Origin: Burkholderiales bacterium
Lineage (GTDB): Bacteria > Pseudomonadota > Gammaproteobacteria > Burkholderiales > SG8-41
Direction of reading: 5' to 3'
DNA: 64,000 nt
Assembly (NCBI GenBank): GCA_050741255.1
Contig: JBOIEQ010000001.1
Coordinates: forward strand, 9,473-73,472
Shown here: one piece after another, positions 1 to 9,741 of the stretch
How the letters are laid out: each line of letters opens with the position of its first letter
How positions within the stretch are numbered: the stretch's first letter is position 1
Made by a program: the position numbers and the translations under genes
The notes under the pieces: model-generated
What the model was told of the DNA's origin: nothing
The model's input: the letters and a program-made list of their open reading frames with translations, nothing else
The model's database searches: none

Positions 1-905
1 ATCAGGAAACGGCGCTCGATGTTTTCCTTCGAGAAGCGGTTCATCGGCAGCGTCGCGTGTTCCTGGATGAAGCGCTTCGCGTCCGCCTTGGAATAGCCGT
101 CGGCGGCAATCGCTTTAGCATGCTCCGGGCCCATCACGATCAGCGGCTGCGCTTCGTAGTAGATGTCGTTGGAGCCCGTGCTGATCAGCGTGCCGGCGAT
201 GGTGGTGAGCAGGCCTAGACCCGTCAGGCTTTCGTGGTCGTTGACGTTGTGCGGGCACTCGGCGCCGATCACGGTCACCGCGCTGGCCTCCTTCGGCAGG
301 CCGCGCTCGACATGCAGCGGCTCCCAGGGATTGCCCGCCTCGTTCTCCGCGACGAAATAGCTGTACTTGGACGGCGCGCCGAAGGTCGACATGTCGCCCA
401 GCGCCGGAATCGCGCCGCCGATGTTGAGCAGCGTCAGCCGGATCGCGCGCCCGATCGTGGCGTTGGCCGGCCAGCCCGGGCCGAAAGCGTTGTGCCCGCA
501 GTTGATGTCGAGTTCCTGCACCACCGGCCCGTTGACGATCACGAGCGGCGCACACAAATGGGTGGTGGCCTGGACGCCGTAGAGGTTGAACGGCTCCTCG
601 CACATCGCCTCGACCGCCAACATGAACAGCGGGAAGTACTGGGGCTTGCAGCCCGCCATCACGGCATTGGCGGCCAGGCGCAGCGGCGTCGCCTCGCCAT
701 AGCGCGGCGCGACCTTGGCGATCGGTTCGTTTACCGGGCGATCGCAGTAGGCGAGCATTTTCTCGACGCGCTCGACCGTCGGCGGGATGACGGGCAGGCC
801 GTCCCCCCAGCCGCGCTTCATCACCAGCTCGTTGACGGCGTCGAAGTCGTCGTCGGCCTCGAGGCTGGCGTCGGGCGCCTTCAGGAAGTCCGCGAGATCG
901 CTCAC
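1..905 (-). CDS. conserved hypothetical Cys-rich protein, translationally coupled to the UGSC selenoprotein gene (3' end runs off the window)
   Basis: Own minus-strand translation: open frame from GTG 905..903 down to position 3 with no stop (VSDLADFLKAPDASLEADDDFDAVNELVMKRGWGDGLPVIPPTVERVEKMLAYCDRP...MAGCKPQYFP...TTHLCAPL...INCGHNAFGPG...GAECPHNVNDHES...RFSKENIERRFL). GC3-rich codons like the neighbours. The GTG overlaps the upstream TGA (GTGA, 905..902). Absent from the ORF track because no stop lies inside the window. Family not recognised. Confidence 0.6.
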   Translation of the reverse strand, partial: MSDLADFLKAPDASLEADDDFDAVNELVMKRGWGDGLPVIPPTVERVEKMLAYCDRPVNEPIAKVAPRYGEATPLRLAANAVMAGCKPQYFPLFMLAVEAMCEEPFNLYGVQATTHLCAPLVIVNGPVVQELDINCGHNAFGPGWPANATIGRAIRLTLLNIGGAIPALGDMSTFGAPSKYSYFVAENEAGNPWEPLHVERGLPKEASAVTVIGAECPHNVNDHESLTGLGLLTTIAGTLISTGSNDIYYEAQPLIVMGPEHAKAIAADGYSKADAKRFIQEHATLPMNRFSKENIERRFL

Positions 906-1444
906 TTGATGTTTTCCTCGATCAGTTTCAGCACCTGCGGCGTCGCGATCAGCGAGCGCCCTTCCACCTGTTCCAGCGACAACCCGCCGAGCGGGTGCGG
1001 GATCTGCACCAGCGGCAGGTCGGGCACGCCAAAGACCTTGGCCTGCGTCCTGCCGAGTTTCATGAACGGATCGGAACAAACGACCGCGGTCACAAGGCCC
1101 CGCTTCCGGAGCTCTGACATGTCGTGGACACTCCACGACGTGCAGGACCCTCAGTCGGCCATTGCGCTGACGACGAAGTCAGCCTCCGCGGCCAGCTGGT
1201 CGAGGATGGGTCCCGGCGCCGGCAGGCTCACGCTGGCCTTGCGCAGCACGACGACCGAGGACACCGGGATCGCCGCCTTCACCGACTCGGCGATGAATTT
1301 CAGCAGGTGGTCGGCATTGCCCTTGCTGTTGTCGAGGATGCCGAGGCGGATGCCGCCCTTCTTGATCTCCCGCTGCGGCTTCAACGCTTCCGCCACGACG
1401 GGCGTCGGGGCTTCGGGGATGACTAGGGTGACTTTCTTGCTCAT
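902..1444 (-). CDS. UGSC-family selenoprotein (in-frame TGA at 1153..1151 read as selenocysteine; 180 aa)
   Basis: ORFs 1151..1444(-) and 902..1120(-) share one frame (1444-1120=324). Only TGA plus 10 sense codons separate them. Read-through gives ...FVVSAMAD-U-GSCTSWSVHD-MSELRKRG.... Strong SD GGAGGAG lies 5-6 nt before ATG 1444, and no SD precedes ATG 1120. A hairpin lies 11 nt 3' of the TGA. Confidence 0.75.
1121..1139 (-). promoter_or_regulatory. SECIS-like hairpin downstream of the UGA codon
   Basis: mRNA sequence GUCGUGGA-GUG-UCCACGAC: 8-bp perfect stem (or 7 bp with loop AGUGU), G/U-containing apical loop. It starts 11 nt after the UGA at 1153..1151, the spacing typical of bacterial SECIS elements. 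Confidence 0.55.
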
Positions 1445-1578
1445 GCGTTACTCCTCCATCATGGTGCGTCCGTGACCGGCGAAAGTGTAGCGCACCGGCA
1501 CTGGCATGGACCACTGTGAAGGGTGCGCGGGAAGTAAACGCGCGGTCCGGTGCCGGTGTGGTGATCGCATTTCGTTTT

Positions 1579-1588
1579 TGGTATACCA
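1579..1588. promoter_or_regulatory. perfect 10-bp palindrome TGGTATACCA, candidate GntR/FadR-type operator
   Basis: Perfect palindrome with a GT-N-AC core, located in the 176-bp divergent region between the UGSC operon and the hydantoinase operon, 33 nt upstream of ATG 1621. A GntR/FCD regulator is encoded in the same operon. Confidence 0.3.
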
Positions 1589-1620
1589 TGGCATTCCATC
1601 GCATTCATCCGGGATTGACC

Positions 1621-4600
1621 ATGTCCATAGCCATTGGCTGTGACATCGGCGGAACATTCACCGATTTCATCCTCATCGACGAAACCTCCGGCACGGTGCG
1701 TGTGGACAAGGTCCTGACCACCCCGGCGGACCCTTCCCTCGCGATCGAGCAGGGTCTGCGCAACCTGGAGGAGGCGCAGCCGGGATCGATACGCGAAACC
1801 GCGGCCTTGGTGCACGGCACGACGCTGGTGATCAACGCGGTCATCGAGCGCAAAGGCGCGCGCACCGGGCTCATCACCACTCGGGGTTTTCGCGATGTGC
1901 TCGAGATTGGCCGCGAGAAGCGGTACGACGGGAACGACCTCCAGATCCGCTTTCCCGAGCCGCTCGTGCCGCGCTCACTGCGCGTCGAGATCGATGAGCG
2001 CATACACGCTTCGGGCCGGGTGCTGCAGGCACTCGATATCGCCTCCGTCGAGCGCGCGGTGCAGGCCCTGACCGCACAGGGTGTCCAGTCGATCGCCATC
2101 TGCCTGCTGCATTCCTACGCGAATCCGGCGCACGAGGAACAGGCGGCCGGCATCGTCGCGCGCCTGGCGCCCGGAATACCGGTCACGCTTTCGTTCGAAG
2201 TGTTGCGAGAACTCAAGGAATACGAACGCTCCACCACCACCGCCGTCAACGCCTACGCCAAGCCCATCGTATCGCGCTATCTGAAAACACTCGAAGGCCG
2301 GCTGGATACGCTGGCCTTCAAGGGCGAACTGCTGCTGATGCAATCGAGCGGCGGCCTCAACTCCTCGCAGATGGCGCAACGATTCCCGGTGCAGATCATC
2401 GAATCGGGACCTGCCGCGGGCGCCATCAGCGCCGCGCACTACGCGCGGCTCGCCGGCCACGCCAAGATACTGGCCTTCGACATGGGTGGCACGACCGCGA
2501 AGATGTGCCTGGTCAAAGACGGCCGCGTGGTCAAGGTCAATCAACTCGAAGTCGACCGCGTGCAGCGCTTCAAGCGCGGCAGCGGCATCCCGGTGCGCGT
2601 GCCGGTCGTGGACCTGATGGAAATCGGCGCGGGTGGCGGCAGCATCGCCCGCGTCAGTCCCAAAGGCACGCTGGAAGTCGGCCCTGAAAGCGCATCCGCC
2701 GCCCCGGGGCCCGCCTGTTACGGCCTGGGCGGAACGCAACCTACCGTATCCGACGCCGACGTCGTGCTCGGCTACCTGAATCCCGCGTACTTCCTCGGCG
2801 GCCGCATGGCGCTCGACAAGACCAGCGCGCAAGCCGCCATCGAGACGGCGCTGGCGAAACCGCTGGGCCTGAGCGTGGAAGCGGCGGCTTGGGGCGTGCA
2901 CAGCGTCGTGAATGAGAATATGGCCGCCGCCGCAAAAGTCTATGTCGCCGAAAAGGGAGAAAGCCCCAGCAGTTGTGCGGTCGTCGCTTTCGGCGGCGCC
3001 GGTCCCGTGCATGCCTCCGATCTCGCGCGGCGCATCGGCGCACAGGTCGTCGTGATTCCGCCGCGCGCCGGCGTCGCCTCCGCGTTCGGCATGCTGATTG
3101 CGCCCGCCTCGTACGACACCGTCCGCACGCATCGCGTGCGCCTGATGCACGCCGACTTCGGCGCGATCGAATCCCAGTACGCCCAGATGGAACAGGCCGC
3201 GCGCGCCGGCCTGCCGCGCAGCGTGGACAGCGCCGCCGTCTGGTTCGAGCGCTCGGCCGATCTGCGCTATGTGGGACAAGGCTACGATCTCACGGTGACG
3301 CTCGCCGCGGAGCGCCAGACCGAAACCGGCATGCGCGCGGCCTTCAACGCCGCGTACCATCTGCTCTACGGCCGCGTGTTCGACGATCTTGAGCTGGAAC
3401 TCATGAACCTCCGCGTCACCGCGTACGCGCCAGGCAAGCACTTTGAAGAGACCGTGCATGCCGTCCCGGCCGGCAGCGCCGTCGCCTGCACCGAACGCGA
3501 TGCGTATTGCGCGATCTCGCGCCGCTTCATCCCGCACAAGGTGTATGCCCGCGCCAGTCTGCCGAAAGGGGCTGCACTCGATGGACCGGCGATCGTGGAG
3601 GAAGCCGAATCGACGACGATCATCGACCAGGATGCGAGCTTTACGGTCGATGATTTCGGCAGCGTCGTGATCTCGCTACGCACCCGCCTGCCGGTGGCGG
3701 TAACGCGCCGCAAAACCGCAAAGCTCGACCCGGTTGCGCTGGAGATGCTGTGGCGGCGGCTGGGCTCCACGGTTGACGAACTGGCGGCGGCGCTGGTCCG
3801 CACCTCGTTCTCGACGGTGGTGCGCGACGTCAACGACTATGCCTGCGCGATATTCGACCGCCAGGCGCGACTGCTCGCGCAATCCACCGACAGCACGCCG
3901 GGAATCTGCGGCGGCCTGGGACCGATGCTCCGTCACATGCTGGAGGTCTGCCCGCCCGCCAGCCTGCGCGAAGGCGACGTACTGATCGGCAACGACCCCT
4001 GGAACGGCAGCGGCCATCACAACGACATCTTTACCGTCACCCCGGCGTTTCACAAAGGCAAGCTGATCGGCTACGCCGCCTGCGCCGCGCACCATGTGGA
4101 CATCGGCGGACGACGCGCGACCACCGAAAGCCGCGACAACTACGAGGAAGGCCTGCGCATCCCGGTAAGCCGCATCATGCGCAGGGGCGAACCCAACCCC
4201 GATGTGTTCAATTTCATCGCCGCCAATGTACGCCTGCCCGACACCGTCCTGGGTGACCTGCGGGCGCAACTCGCCGCCAACCACGTCGGCTGCGAGCGGA
4301 TGCGGGAATTGTGCGCGGAACAGGGCTGGAAGGACCTGCAACTGCTGGCCGGAGAGATCCTGCAGCGCAGCGAGGAGATCGCGCGTTCGGAAATCAGCCG
4401 GATCCCGGACGGCGTGTTCACCCATGAAGCGCCAATCGATATCGTCGACGGCGAGCGCATCGTGCTGCGTGTGGCGGTGACAGTCGAGGGCGACGGGCTC
4501 ACGGTCGACTTCAGCGGGTCTTCGCCGCAGGTGCGCCCCGCCATCAACTGCACGCTCACCTACACCGCGGCGTACGCCCATTTCGCCGTCGGCGCCCTGC

Positions 4601-5397
4601 TCAACCTGCCGGTCGCGATCAACCAGGGCACGCTGGTGCCGGTCAAGGTCACGGCCCAGGCGGGAACCGTACTGAACGCGTCCTTTCCAGCGCCGGTGTT
4701 CGCGCGCACCAGTATCGGCAATTTCGTGCCGGAACTCATTTTCACCGCGCTGGCGTCGGCCCTGCCGGACCGGGTCGTTGCCGGTTCGGGCGCGACGCCG
4801 TTGTGGGCGCAATACCTATTCGGCAAACGCAAGGACGGCAGCCGTTTTGCACCGCTCAACTCGGCCAATGGCGGCCTCGGCGCACGCGCGAACCAGGACG
4901 GCGTGTCCTGCCTGACGTTCCCGGTCAACATCGGGAACACCCCGGTCGAGGTACTCGAAAGCGACATCCCGGTGCTCGTTCGCCAGCGCGCGCTGTGGCC
5001 CGATTCGGCAGGCGCGGGCCGCTTCCGTGGCGGCCTCGGACAGCATTTCGAGATGCAGGTGCTCGAAGACGACCTCGGGCCCGACGGCCCCCTGCTCGTC
5101 GGTTTTCGCGGCGGACGCTTTTATTTCCCGGTGCATGGGCTGCTCGGGGGCGGCGACGGTCCCAACGGCAAACTGACGATCAACGGCAAACCGGCCACCG
5201 GCGGCGGCGACGTATCGGTCCCGCCCGGCGGCACCATCGTGTGCCGCATTCCCGGTGGCGGCGGCCTGGGCTTGCCCGCGGAGCGCCATCCCGATCTCGT
5301 CCGGCGCGATCTCGAATACGGTTACATCACTCTGGAACACGCACAACAGCATTACCCGCATGCACTGGCGGCAGGACGGACCGCGGCCGCGAAGTAG
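1621..5397 (+). CDS. fused hydantoinase/oxoprolinase (HyuA-like N-half plus HyuB-like C-half; 5-oxoprolinase / N-methylhydantoinase family)
   Basis: 1293-aa ORF. The N-terminus MSIAIGCDIGGTFTDF is the hydantoinase-A signature start. The C-half (DPVALEMLWRRLGSTVDELAAALVRTSFSTVVRDVNDYACAIFD...) is hydantoinase B. It parallels the split pair at 27544..31328. Start chosen at the conserved MSIAIG; ATG 1588 is an alternative. Confidence 0.9.
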   Translation: MSIAIGCDIGGTFTDFILIDETSGTVRVDKVLTTPADPSLAIEQGLRNLEEAQPGSIRETAALVHGTTLVINAVIERKGARTGLITTRGFRDVLEIGREKRYDGNDLQIRFPEPLVPRSLRVEIDERIHASGRVLQALDIASVERAVQALTAQGVQSIAICLLHSYANPAHEEQAAGIVARLAPGIPVTLSFEVLRELKEYERSTTTAVNAYAKPIVSRYLKTLEGRLDTLAFKGELLLMQSSGGLNSSQMAQRFPVQIIESGPAAGAISAAHYARLAGHAKILAFDMGGTTAKMCLVKDGRVVKVNQLEVDRVQRFKRGSGIPVRVPVVDLMEIGAGGGSIARVSPKGTLEVGPESASAAPGPACYGLGGTQPTVSDADVVLGYLNPAYFLGGRMALDKTSAQAAIETALAKPLGLSVEAAAWGVHSVVNENMAAAAKVYVAEKGESPSSCAVVAFGGAGPVHASDLARRIGAQVVVIPPRAGVASAFGMLIAPASYDTVRTHRVRLMHADFGAIESQYAQMEQAARAGLPRSVDSAAVWFERSADLRYVGQGYDLTVTLAAERQTETGMRAAFNAAYHLLYGRVFDDLELELMNLRVTAYAPGKHFEETVHAVPAGSAVACTERDAYCAISRRFIPHKVYARASLPKGAALDGPAIVEEAESTTIIDQDASFTVDDFGSVVISLRTRLPVAVTRRKTAKLDPVALEMLWRRLGSTVDELAAALVRTSFSTVVRDVNDYACAIFDRQARLLAQSTDSTPGICGGLGPMLRHMLEVCPPASLREGDVLIGNDPWNGSGHHNDIFTVTPAFHKGKLIGYAACAAHHVDIGGRRATTESRDNYEEGLRIPVSRIMRRGEPNPDVFNFIAANVRLPDTVLGDLRAQLAANHVGCERMRELCAEQGWKDLQLLAGEILQRSEEIARSEISRIPDGVFTHEAPIDIVDGERIVLRVAVTVEGDGLTVDFSGSSPQVRPAINCTLTYTAAYAHFAVGALLNLPVAINQGTLVPVKVTAQAGTVLNASFPAPVFARTSIGNFVPELIFTALASALPDRVVAGSGATPLWAQYLFGKRKDGSRFAPLNSANGGLGARANQDGVSCLTFPVNIGNTPVEVLESDIPVLVRQRALWPDSAGAGRFRGGLGQHFEMQVLEDDLGPDGPLLVGFRGGRFYFPVHGLLGGGDGPNGKLTINGKPATGGGDVSVPPGGTIVCRIPGGGGLGLPAERHPDLVRRDLEYGYITLEHAQQHYPHALAAGRTAAAK

Positions 5398-5428
5398 GAA
5401 TATTCCGTAATTGGCAAAGGAGTTCGTG

Positions 5429-6415
5429 ATGAAGCGTTTCAAACGCAGCACAGTCATCCTTCACGCGGCGTTCACCACGGCCGCCGTCAGTCTGTCCTTC
5501 CCCGTCGCCGCGCAGACCTACCCCACCAAGTCGATCCGCCTCGTCGTGCCGTGGCCCGCGGGCGGCGTGACGGATGTGGTCGCGCGCATCGTCGGCGAGC
5601 GGCTCTCGCAGGGTCTGGGGCAATCCATCATCATCGACAACAAGGCGGGCGCGACCGGCTTCATCGGCACGGAATTCGTCGCCAAGGCCACCCCCGACGG
5701 CTACACGCTCCTGCTCATCACCGCGAGCACGCACGCCATCAGCCCGAACCTGTTCAAGAAGGTGCCCTACGACCCGATCAAGGATTTCGAAACGATCTCC
5801 CAGCTGACGACCGCCCCGACGATACTCGTCACCTACGCCGCGTTCCCCGCAGGCAGTGTTGCGGAACTCGTGAAACTCGCCAAAGCCAAACCCGGCGCGC
5901 TCAATTACGCCTCGTTCGGCAACGGCAGCTCGGCGCATCTCGCCGCCGAACTGTTCAAGCAGGCCACGGGCACCGACTTCGTGCACATCCCCTATAAGGG
6001 CGCCGCGCCGGCCATCGCCGATCTGATGGGGGGGCAGGTCACGATCTTCTTCGATTCCATTCCCTCCGCATTGCCGCATGTACGCTCGGGCAAACTCAAG
6101 GGACTGGCCGTCACCGGGCGCACGCGCACGACCGCGGCGCCCGACATCCCCACCGTGGCCGAAACCTATCCCGGCTTTGAAGTCACCGTATGGCAGGGGT
6201 TTGGCGCGCCCGCCGGCACCCCGCGCGCCGTCATCAACCGGCTCAACGCCGAGTTGGTCAAGGTGATGACGATGCCCGACGTCAGGGAACGCCTGGTGAA
6301 TCTGGGCGCCGATCCGTTGTCCACGACACCCCAGGAATTCGCCGCCCACATCGCACGCGAGAAAGACAAGTGGGCGAGCGTGGTCAAAACTTCCGGCATC
6401 ACGATCAGCGATTGA
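5429..6415 (+). CDS. Bug-family (TctC-like) tripartite tricarboxylate transporter substrate-binding protein
   Basis: Signal peptide followed by AQTYPTKSIRLVVPWPAGGVTD and a later YKG motif. AAGGAG SD lies 6 nt upstream of ATG 5429. Confidence 0.9.
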   Translation: MKRFKRSTVILHAAFTTAAVSLSFPVAAQTYPTKSIRLVVPWPAGGVTDVVARIVGERLSQGLGQSIIIDNKAGATGFIGTEFVAKATPDGYTLLLITASTHAISPNLFKKVPYDPIKDFETISQLTTAPTILVTYAAFPAGSVAELVKLAKAKPGALNYASFGNGSSAHLAAELFKQATGTDFVHIPYKGAAPAIADLMGGQVTIFFDSIPSALPHVRSGKLKGLAVTGRTRTTAAPDIPTVAETYPGFEVTVWQGFGAPAGTPRAVINRLNAELVKVMTMPDVRERLVNLGADPLSTTPQEFAAHIAREKDKWASVVKTSGITISD

Positions 6416-6452
6416 CGTGCGCGATGCAGCCCGTGAGGGGCGGATAGCACGC

Positions 6453-7169
6453 ATGCCCAAGCGCAGCGGCCCGGGCACCGGCAAGGGGGCGAATGTCGGC
6501 GTACGCCGCTTTCCGGAAGCGGAAGCCGGCGAGCCGCGGGGAGAGCATGTCTATGCCGCGCTGCGCGAAGCGATCAGGGTCGGCGAGCTCAAGCCGGGCC
6601 AGCGGCTCGTTGAACGGGAGGTGGCGGCGACGCTCGGGGTGAGCCGCACGCCGGTGCGCCAGGCCTTCAAGCTGCTGGAGGCGCAGGGCATCGCTTCGGT
6701 CGCGGGCGCCCGCGGGCTCGTCATTACCGCGCTGACCCCGGAGGAAGTACGCGAGCTCTACACCATCTGGGAAAGCCTTGAGGGCATCGTCGCACGCTAC
6801 GCCGCGCAGCACGCGACCGACCTCGATCTCAAGGCCCTGCGGCACATCGAGGAGCAATGGAAATCCGCCTCCGGGCCGCAGGTCTACGGCCAGCTCAACA
6901 AGCAGTTCCATGACGCGCTCTATCGCGCCGCGCACAACCGCTATCTCGTGCGCGCCCTCAACGCGATCGACGACGCGCTCGCCCTCCTCGGCGTGACGAC
7001 GTTCTCCATACCGGGGCGCCCCGCCGAGGCCGGTCGCGAGCATGCGGCCATCGTTGCGGCGATCGCACGCCGTGACGGCGCCGCCGCGCAACAGGCGGCC
7101 GAGGCGCACATCCATCGCGCGGGCGAACTCCGCATGACGCTCGTCATGGGACTGGAACTCCGCACGTGA
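6453..7169 (+). CDS. GntR-family transcriptional regulator (FadR/FCD subfamily)
   Basis: wHTH region HVYAALREAIRVGELKPGQRLVEREVAATLGVSRTPVRQAFKLLEAQGI plus a helical C-terminal FCD-like domain. The exact start is uncertain (6417 GTG or 6453 ATG). Confidence 0.85.
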   Translation: MPKRSGPGTGKGANVGVRRFPEAEAGEPRGEHVYAALREAIRVGELKPGQRLVEREVAATLGVSRTPVRQAFKLLEAQGIASVAGARGLVITALTPEEVRELYTIWESLEGIVARYAAQHATDLDLKALRHIEEQWKSASGPQVYGQLNKQFHDALYRAAHNRYLVRALNAIDDALALLGVTTFSIPGRPAEAGREHAAIVAAIARRDGAAAQQAAEAHIHRAGELRMTLVMGLELRT

Positions 7170-8470
7170 ACGCAGCGCCGGCGGCCGAGGCTCATCCAGA
7201 ATCCTATTGGGCCGCAACCGCGGGCCGCACGCGATTCGACCCGCTGACGGGCGACAGCGAAGCAGACGTTGCCGTCATCGGCGGCGGATTTACCGGTCTC
7301 GCCGCCGCTTACGAGCTCAACCGCCTGGGGCGTGACTGCGTCGTGCTTGAGGCGCACGACATCGGCTGGGGCGCGAGCGGACGCAATGGCGGCATGGTCG
7401 TGCCGCGCTACAAGCACACCTATCCCGCGCTCGCCGCCTGCTATGGCGAGGCCGTTGCGCTCGCGATGCATGCCGCGGCACACCGGGCCGTGGACACGGT
7501 GGAAAGCATCGTGGCGGAGTGCGCCATCGACTGCGGGTTCGCCCGTCACGGGCATCTCACGCCTATGGTCCACGCCAGCGACGAGGCGCGCTTCGCGGCG
7601 GATGCCGAATGGCTGGCGCGATATGCGGGCGACGCCGTACCCGCCATGCTGAGCAGGGCTGATACCGCCCGCCGGATCGGCACGGACTTCTATCGTGCCG
7701 CCTACTACGAACCGCGCGGCGCGGGCATCCACCCGTTTGCCTACTGTGCCGGCTTGGCGGTCGCGCTGGCCGCACGCGGCGTGCGCATCCACACGGCAAC
7801 GCCTGCCCTCGAATGGCACTCTGATGGCAACGCGGTAACGGTGAGCACCCCGCGCGGAACTGTCAGGGCGCACCACCTCGTGCTGGCGACCAATGGCTAC
7901 ACCGACCTGACGCAGGCGGGCGCGGCGCTCAAGCTGCGCATCGTGCCCATGGTGTCGTCATTGATTGCCACTGAACCGCTCCCCTCCGCCATTCGGGAAC
8001 GCCTGCTGCCGGCAGGTCACCTGGTCACGGACGCCAAGCGCCTGACCAATTATTTCCGGCTGATGCCTGATGGCGCACTCCTGTTCGGCGGGCGCGGCGG
8101 CGCTTCAAACCGGACGAGTACGGCGGTCTACCGCCGGCTCGCGCACGAGCTTGCGAACATCTTCCCGGCGCTGGCGGGCACGCCGCTCCGCTACCGCTGG
8201 TCGGGCCGTGTGGCCGTGACGCTCGACGGCTTGCCGCACATCGGCGCACTCGGCAAGAGCGTCTCCTACGCCCTCGGTTACAACGGCCGGGGCGTTGCAC
8301 TGTCGGCGCTGCTGGGTCGCATGCTTGCGCACCGCGCGTGCGGAGAACCGGTCGACGCGGGCCCCATGAGCAAAACCGGTTTCGGCGGCATCCCGCTACA
8401 CGCGCTGCGGGTTCCGGCCAAGCAGCTTGCCATTACCTATTACCGTCTGCTCGATGCGATCGGCGCGTGA
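7166..8470 (+). CDS. FAD-dependent oxidoreductase (DAO family, PuuB/sarcosine-oxidase-like)
   Basis: Dinucleotide fold DVAVIGGGFTGLAAAYEL and DIGWGASGRNGGM. Paralogous to 26202..27554. GTGA overlap with the gntR stop. Confidence 0.9.
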   Translation: MNAAPAAEAHPESYWAATAGRTRFDPLTGDSEADVAVIGGGFTGLAAAYELNRLGRDCVVLEAHDIGWGASGRNGGMVVPRYKHTYPALAACYGEAVALAMHAAAHRAVDTVESIVAECAIDCGFARHGHLTPMVHASDEARFAADAEWLARYAGDAVPAMLSRADTARRIGTDFYRAAYYEPRGAGIHPFAYCAGLAVALAARGVRIHTATPALEWHSDGNAVTVSTPRGTVRAHHLVLATNGYTDLTQAGAALKLRIVPMVSSLIATEPLPSAIRERLLPAGHLVTDAKRLTNYFRLMPDGALLFGGRGGASNRTSTAVYRRLAHELANIFPALAGTPLRYRWSGRVAVTLDGLPHIGALGKSVSYALGYNGRGVALSALLGRMLAHRACGEPVDAGPMSKTGFGGIPLHALRVPAKQLAITYYRLLDAIGA

Positions 8471-8514: not shown

Positions 8515-9741
8515 ATGCGTTTGGAATTTTCCGCTTTCCGGAGCCGCAACTACCGGTTGTTCCTCGCCGGCCAGAGTCTGTCGATGATCGGCCACGCGAT
8601 GCAACAGGTCGCGCTCGGCTGGATCGTCTTCAACTGGACCGGGTCGACCTACTGGCTGGGACTCGTCGCGTTCGCGGGCCAGGTGCCTTTCCTCGTCACA
8701 ACCCCACTTGCCGGAGTGCTCACCGATCGCTATGACAAGCGGCGCCTCCTGATGGGGGCGCAGACACTGGGTCTCGTCAGCGCGCTCACGCTGGTCATGC
8801 TCACCTTGTCCGGCAGCGGCAACGCCTGGGCTGTCACGCTGACCGCACTGGCCGCGGGTATCGCCGTCAGCATCGAAGTCCCCACCCGCCAGGCGCTGTT
8901 GGTCGACCTGATCCGGGACAAGGCGCATCTGCCGAACGCCATTGCCTTCTACTCGCTCATGTTCAATACCGGGCGCACGCTGGGACCGCTCGCCGCCGGC
9001 ATGTTGCTTGCCTCCACCGGCGCGTGGACGTGTTTCGCGGCTAATGCGGCCACCTACGCAGCCCTGCTCGCGGCCATGAGCATGATCGAGCGGCCGGCTG
9101 TTGTGCGGCCCGTCCACACGGCGGGTGTCGTGCGCAGCCTCGTGCACGCGTTCACCTATGTGCGCAGGCACGACCTGCTGTGGGCGCTGATCCTGCTCAC
9201 GGGCGTGGCCAGCTTTGCGCTCATGCCCTATGTGGCGCTGATGCCTGCGGTCGCCGGCACCGATTATGCCGCCGCACCGGAGACGCTCGGTTTGCTGCTA
9301 GGGTCGGCTGGTTTTGGTGCCATGCTGGGCAACCTGTCGCTCGCCACGGGTGGCGCCGTCCGCAATCTGCCGCGCAAGATCGCGCTGGCGACCTGCGCCT
9401 CCGGCGTCGCCCTGCTCGTCTTCAGCTTCGTGCCGGCGCTGGGTGCGCGGTTCCTGCTCATGGCCATACTGGGTTGGGGCTATACCGTTGCCATGTCGGC
9501 GTGCAACATCGCGCTGCAAGCCGTCGTACAGGAGGACCAGCGGGGGCGCGTGGCGGCTATTTACATCATGGCCCTGCTGGGCCTGCCCCCCCTCGGCGCA
9601 CTCGGCGCGGGCGTACTCGCGCAACACGTCGGCACGGCACTCACGCTGGCAACAGGCGGCCTTCTCTGCGCGCTGGCAGGCTTGCAACTGCTGTCCGGAA
9701 GCAAACGCTATGTGCGTGCCATCGATGCCGCAGCCGTATGA
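8515..9741 (+). CDS. MFS transporter (EntS/MFS_3-like)
   Basis: 408 aa, about 12 hydrophobic segments, motif GVLTDRYDKRRLL after TM2. Confidence 0.85.
   Translation: MRLEFSAFRSRNYRLFLAGQSLSMIGHAMQQVALGWIVFNWTGSTYWLGLVAFAGQVPFLVTTPLAGVLTDRYDKRRLLMGAQTLGLVSALTLVMLTLSGSGNAWAVTLTALAAGIAVSIEVPTRQALLVDLIRDKAHLPNAIAFYSLMFNTGRTLGPLAAGMLLASTGAWTCFAANAATYAALLAAMSMIERPAVVRPVHTAGVVRSLVHAFTYVRRHDLLWALILLTGVASFALMPYVALMPAVAGTDYAAAPETLGLLLGSAGFGAMLGNLSLATGGAVRNLPRKIALATCASGVALLVFSFVPALGARFLLMAILGWGYTVAMSACNIALQAVVQEDQRGRVAAIYIMALLGLPPLGALGAGVLAQHVGTALTLATGGLLCALAGLQLLSGSKRYVRAIDAAAV

What the first reader, a model, noticed from the sequence alone, without database searches (positions are those of the whole stretch)
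902..1444. In-frame UGA fuses two called ORFs into a UGSC-motif selenoprotein with a correctly spaced SECIS-like hairpin
What the sequence shows:
- ORFs 1151..1444(-) and 902..1120(-) are in the same frame. Only TGA (1153..1151) and ten sense codons separate them.
- Read-through yields one 180-aa protein with ...SAMAD-U-GSC-TSWSVHDMSELRK... at its centre.
- The first ATG has a strong GGAGGAG Shine-Dalgarno. The second ATG has none.
- An 8-bp hairpin, GUCGUGGA-GUG-UCCACGAC (1139..1121), begins 11 nt after the UGA, which is the classical bacterial SECIS geometry.

Established knowledge: a 'UGSC-containing' selenoprotein family was defined in microbial selenoproteome surveys, and its biochemical function is still unknown.

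Standard gene callers would split or truncate this gene.
Basis: partly seen in the sequence, partly recalled or inferred. Interest (0 to 1): 0.7.

Follow-up and report, generated by a model that had tools for sequence, protein, structure and literature searches.

The report
UGSC-family selenoprotein gene, split by callers
The two small ORFs are one gene for a known but functionally unstudied selenoprotein (UGSC family) whose internal UGA is read as selenocysteine with help from a strictly conserved RNA hairpin; it is an ordinary member of a catalogued family that gene callers routinely cut in two.

Summary
ORFs 1151..1444(-) and 902..1120(-) share a frame. Reading through TGA 1153..1151 gives a 180-aa protein with U98 in ...SAMAD-U-GSC-TSWSVHDM.

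With U replaced by C, the protein matches Pfam PF24696 (UGSC, 142.9 bits) and NCBIfam NF041046 "UGSC family (seleno)protein" (125.8 bits, cutoff 125).

All 80 related genomic loci retrieved, all Betaproteobacteria/Burkholderiales MAGs, carry an in-frame TGA at the same position. Full-length Cys forms carry CGSC there.

The hairpin 1139..1121 meets every constraint of the published bacterial SECIS model. Its codons are almost frozen at synonymous sites (0-0.26 bits, against 1.31 and 0.75 elsewhere in the gene). There is one compensatory G-C to A-U change.

Public gene calls split the gene into 97-aa and 72-aa pieces.

Selenocysteine machinery could not be checked for this genome. None lies in the window. 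One related locus has selB 4.3 kb upstream of its UGSC gene.

Beyond the finding:
- The gene is translationally coupled to a downstream gene of a large uncharacterised family. That gene is adjacent in 76/80 loci and fused to UGSC in some organisms.
- The predicted fold is flavodoxin-like, not thioredoxin-like.
- There is weak, consistent similarity to the Sec domain of GrdB/PrdB reductases.

Verdict: supported, already known in kind, modest interest.

The parts
902..1444 (-). Complete UGSC-family selenoprotein gene: 180 codons plus stop, with Sec at codon 98
   Evidence: PF24696 scores 142.9 bits. NF041046 scores 125.8 bits against a cutoff of 125.
1151..1153 (-). In-frame UGA read as selenocysteine (U98 of the U-G-S-C motif)
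   Evidence: TGA is at the same position in 80/80 related loci. CGSC is found there in Cys-form homologues.
1121..1139 (-). SECIS hairpin: 8-bp stem and GUG loop, starting 11 nt after the UGA (19 nt from the UGA to the loop)
   Evidence: dG is -11.1 kcal/mol. It meets the bSECIS model constraints. The hairpin sequence is identical to the window's in 74 of the 80 related loci. The variants keep pairing: 2 loci with G-C to A-U, 3 with G-C to G-U, and 1 that loses the terminal pair.
1451..1457 (-). Shine-Dalgarno GGAGGAG, 6 nt upstream of the ATG at 1444..1442
   Evidence: Read directly from the sequence.
1..905 (-). First 301 codons of the translationally coupled partner gene. Its GTG at 905..903 overlaps the UGSC stop at 904..902. 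The full length is 370 aa (= P0101); the gene is cut by the window edge.
   Evidence: It is adjacent in 76/80 loci. It has no Pfam, NCBIfam or PDB match. It is fused to UGSC in P0351, P0374, P0465 and P0478.

Best explanation
Window 902..1444(-) is a single gene for a UGSC-family selenoprotein.

Decoding. Translation starts at ATG 1444 behind a strong Shine-Dalgarno. At UGA 1153..1151 the ribosome meets the hairpin 1139..1121. In bacteria such a hairpin is bound by SelB carrying GTP and Sec-tRNA(Sec), so that selenocysteine is inserted instead of terminating (established mechanism; inferred here). Translation then continues to the true stop, also a UGA but without a hairpin, at 904..902. That stop overlaps the start of the next gene.

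The protein. The 180-aa product is predicted to be one flavodoxin-like alpha/beta domain built from both 'halves'. The model was made on the 60%-identical homologue P0001. Sec98 and Cys101 (U-G-S-C) sit at the N-terminus of the third helix. That geometry suits a redox-active selenenylsulfide pair (inferred).

Likely role. It most likely acts together with the co-transcribed, sometimes fused, 370-aa partner protein as the redox or nucleophilic subunit of a two-component enzyme. The substrate is unknown. The role may be analogous to the UxxC Sec domain of GrdB/PrdB reductases (inferred, weakly supported).
For: Family membership:
- Pfam and NCBIfam both match.

Conservation of the Sec codon:
- TGA is in frame in 80/80 loci.
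- Amino-acid conservation with free synonymous change continues downstream of the TGA.
- Nearly all database homologues are fragments ending at ...SAMAD, or 72-aa C-terminal pieces.

Cys/Sec pair:
- Full-length homologues carry CGSC at the aligned place.

SECIS:
- All four constraints of the published bacterial model are met.
- Synonymous entropy is 0-0.26 bits in hairpin codons +4..+10. Elsewhere it is 1.31 bits at 4- and 6-fold-degenerate codons and 0.75 bits at 2-fold codons.
- The Ser codon AGT, which supplies the loop G-U, is invariant in 81/81 sequences. It is used in only 4 of 55 Ser codons at position -5.
- There is a compensatory ACA...GAT change in L053 and L079, and a G-U change in L028, L049 and L078.

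Single domain:
- The AF2 model has pLDDT 86.7 and pTM 0.79, with one beta-sheet spanning both halves.

Partner linkage:
- The partner is adjacent in 76/80 loci, and it is the only conserved neighbour.
- Rosetta-stone fusions exist.

Sec machinery in this clade:
- selB lies 4.3 kb upstream of the UGSC gene in L028.

GrdB/PrdB link:
- 20/23 UGSC proteins weakly hit TIGR01917.
- hhalign gives P of 2e-4 to 7e-4 with Sec on Sec and Cys on Cys. The reversed control gives P = 0.19.
Against: - No tRNA-Sec, selA, selB or selD lies in the 64-kb window. The rest of this MAG could not be examined.
- No Rfam family matches the hairpin.
- The hairpin is nearly invariant, so true covariation rests on two, possibly related, sequences.
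- Nothing here is experimental.
- The functional part is weak. Pfam GRDB is not hit. hhalign probability is only 27-45%. Foldseek finds only generic Rossmann/flavodoxin-like folds with TM <= 0.50.
- The partner's structure model is poor, at pLDDT 54. Its Cys residues are not conserved in the fused forms.
Confidence: 0.92

Rival explanations
1. The UGA is a genuine stop. Either it is a nonsense mutation or pseudogene, or there are two separate small proteins, with the second made from ATG 1120.
For: Gene callers give 97-aa and 72-aa ORFs. An ATG follows the hairpin, and a GGAG lies 11 nt upstream of it.
Against: - The TGA is conserved in 80/80 diverged loci of 62-92% identity. That is incompatible with a random nonsense mutation.
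- The ten codons between the ORFs are invariant as protein.
- Cys-form homologues and fusions are continuous through this point.
- The predicted domain needs strands from both halves.
- The GGAG is sequestered in the stem.
Confidence: 0.03
2. The UGA is read through as Trp or another standard amino acid. This could be by an alternative genetic code or near-cognate suppression. On this view the hairpin merely stimulates read-through or serves another regulatory role.
For: One database homologue (P0001) is recorded with W at this position. Hairpins after stop codons can stimulate read-through.
Against: - The same gene ends at a UGA (904..902), and its orthologues end at a stop codon at the same place. 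UGA is therefore a normal stop in this organism.
- No homologue has a TGG codon at this place in the 80 loci.
- The alternative residue in full-length forms is Cys, the classical Sec/Cys pair.
- The hairpin fits the SelB-type SECIS geometry.
- The W in P0001 is most likely a translation-table artefact of the caller.
Confidence: 0.03
3. The strict nucleotide conservation of the 21-nt segment reflects something other than a SECIS. Candidates are a protein- or sRNA-binding site, or codon-level constraints of the TSWSVHD peptide.
For: The peptide TSWSVHD is also present in some Cys forms (P0371, P0374). Part of the conservation is therefore at the protein level.
Against: - Protein constraint cannot freeze third positions. 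ACG, TCG, AGT, GTC, CAC and GAC are each 96-100% invariant, while flanking conserved residues vary freely.
- The few changes preserve pairing.
- The position and loop sequence are those of the bSECIS model.
Confidence: 0.02

Closest known systems
UGSC family (seleno)protein (NCBIfam NF041046; Pfam PF24696; 'UGSC-containing protein' of Zhang, Gladyshev and co-workers)
   Same: - Full-length HMM matches above both curated thresholds.
- The U-G-S-C motif is at the aligned position.
- Sec forms heavily outnumber Cys forms, as reported for GOS: 255 Sec against 21 Cys.
- It is prevalent in non-marine and freshwater samples.
- Its function is unknown.
   Different: Nothing essential. The literature suggested a thioredoxin-like fold. 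The AF2 model here is a five-strand parallel flavodoxin/Rossmann-like sandwich, with the motif after strand 3.
Selenoprotein B of glycine/sarcosine/betaine/D-proline reductases (GrdB, GrdF, PrdB; TIGR01917, TIGR01918, PF07355)
   Same: - The UxxC motif follows a hydrophobic strand. It is then followed by a helix, a G-[IV]-x-T-V strand and a P-x-G motif.
- 20/23 UGSC proteins weakly hit TIGR01917 over GrdB positions 333-409.
- hhalign against GOS PrdB/GrdB-like reads puts Sec on Sec.
   Different: - Scores are far below family cutoffs: 15.9 bits against 602.
- The Pfam GRDB model is not hit.
- UGSC is 180 aa, against about 240-436 aa.
- No PrdA/GrdE-type pyruvoyl subunit or GrdA lies nearby.
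- The hosts are aerobic-type Burkholderiales, not amino-acid-fermenting anaerobes.
Bacterial SECIS elements (E. coli fdhF type; bSECISearch consensus)
   Same: - It lies immediately downstream of the UGA, within the coding sequence.
- It has a small apical loop starting with G-U, an 8-bp upper stem and 19 nt from the UGA to the loop.
- dG is at or below -7.5 kcal/mol.
   Different: - The loop has 3 nt, the minimum allowed.
- There is no bulged U as in fdhF.
- The predicted lower stem is not conserved.
- SelB binding has not been tested.

Membership tests
UGSC family (seleno)protein | Full-length match to the family HMMs above the curated cutoffs | tested here: met
   NF041046 scores 125.8 bits against a cutoff of 125 (with U scored as C). 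PF24696 scores 142.9 bits against a cutoff of 25. 23/23 related full-length sequences also match.
UGSC family (seleno)protein | U(or C)-G-S-C motif at the conserved position | tested here: met
   The window has SAMAD-U-GSC-TSW. Among the 80 loci, 73 have UGSC, 6 have UGAC and 1 has UGGC. Cys forms have CGSC.
Bacterial selenoprotein gene (any) | In-frame UGA conserved among orthologues, with coding conservation on both sides | tested here: met
   TGA is present in 80/80 loci. Downstream codons show conserved amino acids with free synonymous change. GC3 is 0.92 upstream and 0.84 downstream.
Bacterial selenoprotein gene (any) | Cys-containing homologues with Cys aligned to Sec | tested here: met
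   P0342, P0343, P0345, P0347, P0350 and others, as well as P0005, have C at the aligned position.
Bacterial selenoprotein gene (any) | [quoted passage not shown] | tested here: met
   The loop is GUG, the stem is 8 bp, the distance is 19 nt and the MFE is -11.1 kcal/mol. Synonymous sites are frozen and the changes are compensatory. SelB binding was not tested.
Bacterial selenoprotein gene (any) | selA, selB, selC and selD present in the same genome | not testable with these tools
   None lies in the 64-kb window. A related MAG locus (L028) carries selB 4.3 kb upstream of its UGSC gene.
Bacterial selenoprotein gene (any) | Selenium actually incorporated at the UGA | not testable with these tools
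   This needs 75Se labelling or mass spectrometry.
GrdB/PrdB selenoprotein B family | Match to TIGR01917, TIGR01918 or PF07355 above the cutoff | tested here: not met
   TIGR01917 scores 15.9 bits against a cutoff of 602.2. PF07355 is not hit. Only a remote similarity is seen, with hhalign P of 2e-4 to 7e-4.
Thioredoxin-fold UxxC selenoproteins | Thioredoxin fold with the redox motif after strand 1 | tested here: not met
   The AF2 model was built on the 60%-identical homologue P0001. It shows a (beta-alpha)x5 order of elements. The motif lies between strand 3 and helix 3. No thioredoxin-fold protein appears among the top 50 Foldseek PDB hits.

The most novel reading that the evidence does not exclude
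UGSC and its translationally coupled (elsewhere fused) 370-aa partner, a family with no Pfam, NCBIfam or PDB relative, may form a so-far undescribed two-component selenoenzyme. It would be widespread in freshwater and soil Burkholderiales. Its Sec domain would be a minimal, free-standing relative of the GrdB/PrdB reductase Sec domain, acting on an unknown substrate in aerobic-type bacteria.
Probability: 0.3. Interest if true: 0.55.

Novelty: already known. Interest (0 to 1): 0.3.

Why it matters
For annotation, this gene and hundreds of orthologues sit in public protein sets as two meaningless fragments of 97 aa and 72 aa. Merging them with a Sec at residue 98 is the correct call.

For biology, the UGSC family has been counted among the most abundant aquatic selenoproteins since the mid-2000s, yet it has no assigned function. 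Three points from this work give concrete starting points for experiments:
- The near-obligate pairing with one uncharacterised partner gene, and occasional fusion to it.
- The non-thioredoxin predicted fold.
- The faint GrdB/PrdB resemblance.

None of this changes the classification of the finding itself.

Tried and rejected
- Rfam at gathering threshold over the whole window, and at E <= 10 over 1050..1250, finds no SECIS or other relevant family.
- PDB sequence searches with the protein and with a profile find nothing.
The 60%-identical homologue P0001, which has W at the Sec position, was modelled instead.
- Foldseek of the UGSC model finds only generic alpha/beta sandwiches with TM <= 0.50. 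No specific family can be named.
- The first hhalign, against only three GOS 'GrdB' reads, gave a meaningless alignment with E = 0.25. A larger PrdB/GrdB-like set gave the weak positive result.
- For the partner protein:
  - Pfam and NCBIfam at E <= 5 on 30 members find nothing.
  - The AF2 model is poor, at pLDDT 54, because the usable alignment was shallow at 75-96% identity.
  - Its Foldseek hits are not significant; the best is a class I fumarate hydratase at E = 0.011 and TM 0.24. I do not use them.
- The divergently transcribed fused hydantoinase A/B, the TctC receptor, the GntR regulator and the DAO oxidase were considered as functional partners. They were rejected because they are not conserved next to UGSC in other loci: hydantoinase in 1/80, and TctC sporadic.
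- tRNA-Sec was sought in the window and in 13 long loci. None was found.
- An exact look-up of P0101 in the contig index failed.

Full report
**1. The observation**

On the minus strand the sequence reads GGAGGAG (1457..1451), then 6 nt, then ATG (1444..1442). There follow 96 further sense codons, TGA (1153..1151) and GGG TCC TGC ACG TCG TGG AGT GTC CAC GAC. Then come ATG (1120) plus 71 sense codons, and TGA (904..902).

Both listed ORFs are in one frame. Read-through gives 180 residues with the UGA at position 98...DFVVSAMAD-U-GSCTSWSVHDMSELRK....

The inverted repeat GUCGUGGA/UCCACGAC with loop GUG occupies 1139..1121, 11 nt after the UGA.

The hairpin alone has dG -11.1 kcal/mol. The 57-nt context folds at -24.8 kcal/mol with z = -2.3. 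That is suggestive but not decisive by itself.

A six-frame scan for TGA codons flanked on both sides by coding-like composition returns only this site in 64 kb.

**2. What the protein is**

With U scored as C, the product matches Pfam PF24696 'UGSC family' (142.9 bits; residues 16-175 against profile positions 11-170 of 172). It also matches NCBIfam NF041046 'UGSC family (seleno)protein' (125.8 bits, cutoff 125). Each half alone matches the corresponding half of the model.

The family was defined in metagenomic selenoproteome surveys:
- In the GOS data it was among the most abundant families, with 255 Sec forms against 21 Cys forms.
- It was more frequent in non-marine samples.
- It was said to have 'likely' a thioredoxin-like fold, and to occur fused to a domain called Unknown_1 (PMC2398784).
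- A 2026 review still lists its function as uncharacterised (PMC13188914).

**3. Comparative evidence for Sec decoding**

A database search returned almost only fragments. These are N-terminal pieces ending exactly at ...SAMAD and 825 C-terminal pieces, nearly all 72 aa.

A scan of one genome per species returned 415 loci encoding relatives. The best 80, at 62-92% identity, are all Betaproteobacteria/Burkholderiales MAGs.
- Every one of the 80 has an in-frame TGA at the same codon: 73 UGSC, 6 UGAC and 1 UGGC.
- Downstream of the TGA, amino acids stay conserved while synonymous sites vary freely. Examples are Leu+14 at 1.93 bits, Gly+18 at 1.64 bits and Lys+16 at 0.99 bits. The region is therefore translated.

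An exhaustive profile search of 1.84 billion representatives found 2,435 relatives. Many are continuous proteins of 175-215 aa whose aligned residue is Cys (...GDCGSCTSW......GDCGSC...). That is the classical Sec/Cys pair.

The gene's own terminator is also UGA, so an alternative genetic code is excluded.

**4. The hairpin is a SECIS by every computable criterion**

The published bacterial model requires:
- a 3-9 nt apical loop with G in one of its first two positions, usually followed by G or U;
- a 4-16 bp upper stem;
- 16-37 nt from the UGA to the loop;
- MFE <= -7.5 kcal/mol.

Here the loop is G-U-G, the stem is 8 bp, the distance is 19 nt and the energy is -11.1 kcal/mol.

More telling is the pattern across the 81 sequences. 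The seven codons forming the hairpin (ACG TCG TGG AGT GTC CAC GAC) have synonymous entropies of 0-0.26 bits. Conserved residues elsewhere in the gene have a mean of 1.31 bits at 4- and 6-fold-degenerate codons and 0.75 bits at 2-fold codons.

The Ser codon AGT provides the loop G-U. It is invariant in 81/81 sequences, although it is used in only 4 of 55 Ser codons at position -5.

The few variants keep the stem:
- ACA...GAT (G-C to A-U) in L053 and L079.
- CAC to CAT (G-C to G-U) in L028, L049 and L078.
- Only L037 loses the terminal pair.

The two compensatory cases may share ancestry, so this counts as one or two events.

**5. Annotation status**

Public gene calls on contigs carrying exactly this N-terminal ORF list two genes, of 97 aa and 72 aa. 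These contigs come from NCBI GCA_975255875.1 and two Logan assemblies. Both pieces hit PF24696.

**6. Sec machinery**

No tRNA-Sec lies in the window. No SelA, SelB or SelD homologue lies there either, by tblastn with the E. coli proteins.

This says little for a 64-kb piece of a genome. The rest of the MAG cannot be reached with these tools. The partner gene product is 100% identical to an NCBI protein of a 'Burkholderiales bacterium' MAG.

One related locus, L028, carries selB (646 aa, 36% identity to E. coli SelB, E = 1e-101) 4.3 kb upstream of its UGSC gene.

**7. Surroundings and likely mode of action**

The UGSC stop overlaps the GTG start of the next gene (GTGA, 905..902). That gene runs off the window. 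Its full length is 370 aa, as shown by P0101.
- It is adjacent to UGSC in 76 of 80 loci. An unbiased clustering of all ORFs within 7 kb shows it is the only conserved neighbour.
- In L004 the pair sits alone between recN and the next downstream genes.
- The fused hydantoinase A/B, TctC, GntR and DAO genes seen in the window are not conserved partners.
- The partner family is large, with at least 7,841 hits. It has no match in Pfam, NCBIfam or PDB sequences, even at permissive thresholds.
- Proteins of 533-560 aa exist in which a Cys-form UGSC domain is fused N-terminally to this partner (P0351, P0374, P0465, P0478). This is probably the 'UGSC/Unknown_1' fusion of the 2008 paper.

Operon coupling plus fusion argue that the two proteins act together.

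An AF2 model of the 60%-identical homologue P0001 (pLDDT 86.7, pTM 0.79) gives a single (beta-alpha)x5 domain. The Sec position lies between strand 3 and helix 3. Foldseek finds only generic flavodoxin/Rossmann-like sandwiches and no thioredoxin fold.

There is a recurrent weak sequence signal pointing to the Sec-bearing C-terminal part of GrdB/PrdB-type reductases:
- 20/23 UGSC proteins hit TIGR01917, with best E = 5e-5.
- 6/23 hit TIGR01918, and 3/23 hit GrdF.
- A profile-profile alignment with GOS PrdB/GrdB-like reads has P of 2e-4 to 7e-4. It superposes Sec on Sec, Cys on Cys, the following G-[IV]-x-T strand and the P-x-G motif. The reversed control gives P = 0.19.
- Pfam GRDB is not hit.

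I regard homology as plausible but unproven.

The mechanism I consider most likely has two parts. The decoding part is well supported. For function, U98 and C101 would cycle between selenol/thiol and selenenylsulfide at a helix N-terminus. They would serve the partner protein's reaction, as the UxxC pair does in PrdB and GrdB. The functional part is inferred.

**8. Verdict**

It lies squarely within a known kind.

Its residual interest has three sources: the function of the family remains unknown, the partner family is unannotated, and the gene is mis-called in public data.

Noticed in passing
window 1..905 (-): This is the partner gene of UGSC, with a GTGA start/stop overlap. It belongs to a very large protein family (at least 7,841 database hits) that has no Pfam, NCBIfam or PDB relative. 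It is adjacent to UGSC in 76/80 loci and is fused to a Cys-form UGSC domain in proteins of 533-560 aa. The motifs GVQATT, NATIGRA and AENE appear in the window protein and in most of the fused forms.
   Followed up: partly
L028:3377-5679: A related Burkholderiales MAG carries selB (3739..5679) 4.3 kb upstream of its UGSC gene. Just before selB there are only short SelA-like fragments: residues 31-99 and 414-461 of E. coli SelA, within 330 nt. This could be a selA remnant or an assembly collapse.
   Followed up: partly
L086:410-450 (protein P0084): A distant homologue has TTA (Leu) where the others have TGA. It still keeps the downstream hairpin, with one pair changed to a U-G wobble. TTA is one base away from TGA. 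This is either a sequencing error or a recent loss of the Sec codon.
   Followed up: partly
protein P0001 (JGI sample 3300075153; DNA not available): This is a full-length UGSC homologue recorded with Trp at the Sec position. The most likely cause is a gene caller translating UGA as Trp.
   Followed up: partly
L072, L074, L077, L080 (UGAC variants): Six loci have U-G-A-C instead of U-G-S-C. Four of them lack the partner gene in the DNA held. Some of those have a TctC-family receptor gene next to UGSC instead, and in L074 a LuxR-type regulator and a family III CoA-transferase flank it. This may be a subfamily with a different context.
   Followed up: partly
window 1516..5397 (+): This is a fused hydantoinase A + B / oxoprolinase-like gene (1293-aa ORF), transcribed divergently from UGSC. 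The Pfam domains begin at residue 40, so the real start is probably near 1621. It is followed by TctC (5411..6415), a GntR/FCD regulator (6417..7169), a DAO-family FAD oxidase (7166..8470) and an MFS transporter (8515..9741). This looks like a catabolic cluster unrelated to UGSC in other genomes.
   Followed up: partly
L001, L008, L016, L017; L012, L053, L074, L075, L078: Several MAG records carrying this Burkholderiales-type locus are titled 'uncultured Streptomycetaceae/Streptomyces'. Others, from lake samples, are titled 'Bordetella parapertussis'. The gene content and close identity to betaproteobacterial loci suggest wrong taxonomic labels or bin contamination.
   Followed up: no
protein P0048 (140 aa): This database protein joins the first 76 residues of the partner protein to the UGSC N-terminal half, at a shared ...RLG... 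tripeptide. It comes from a 682-nt contig and is probably an assembly chimera rather than a real fusion.
   Followed up: no
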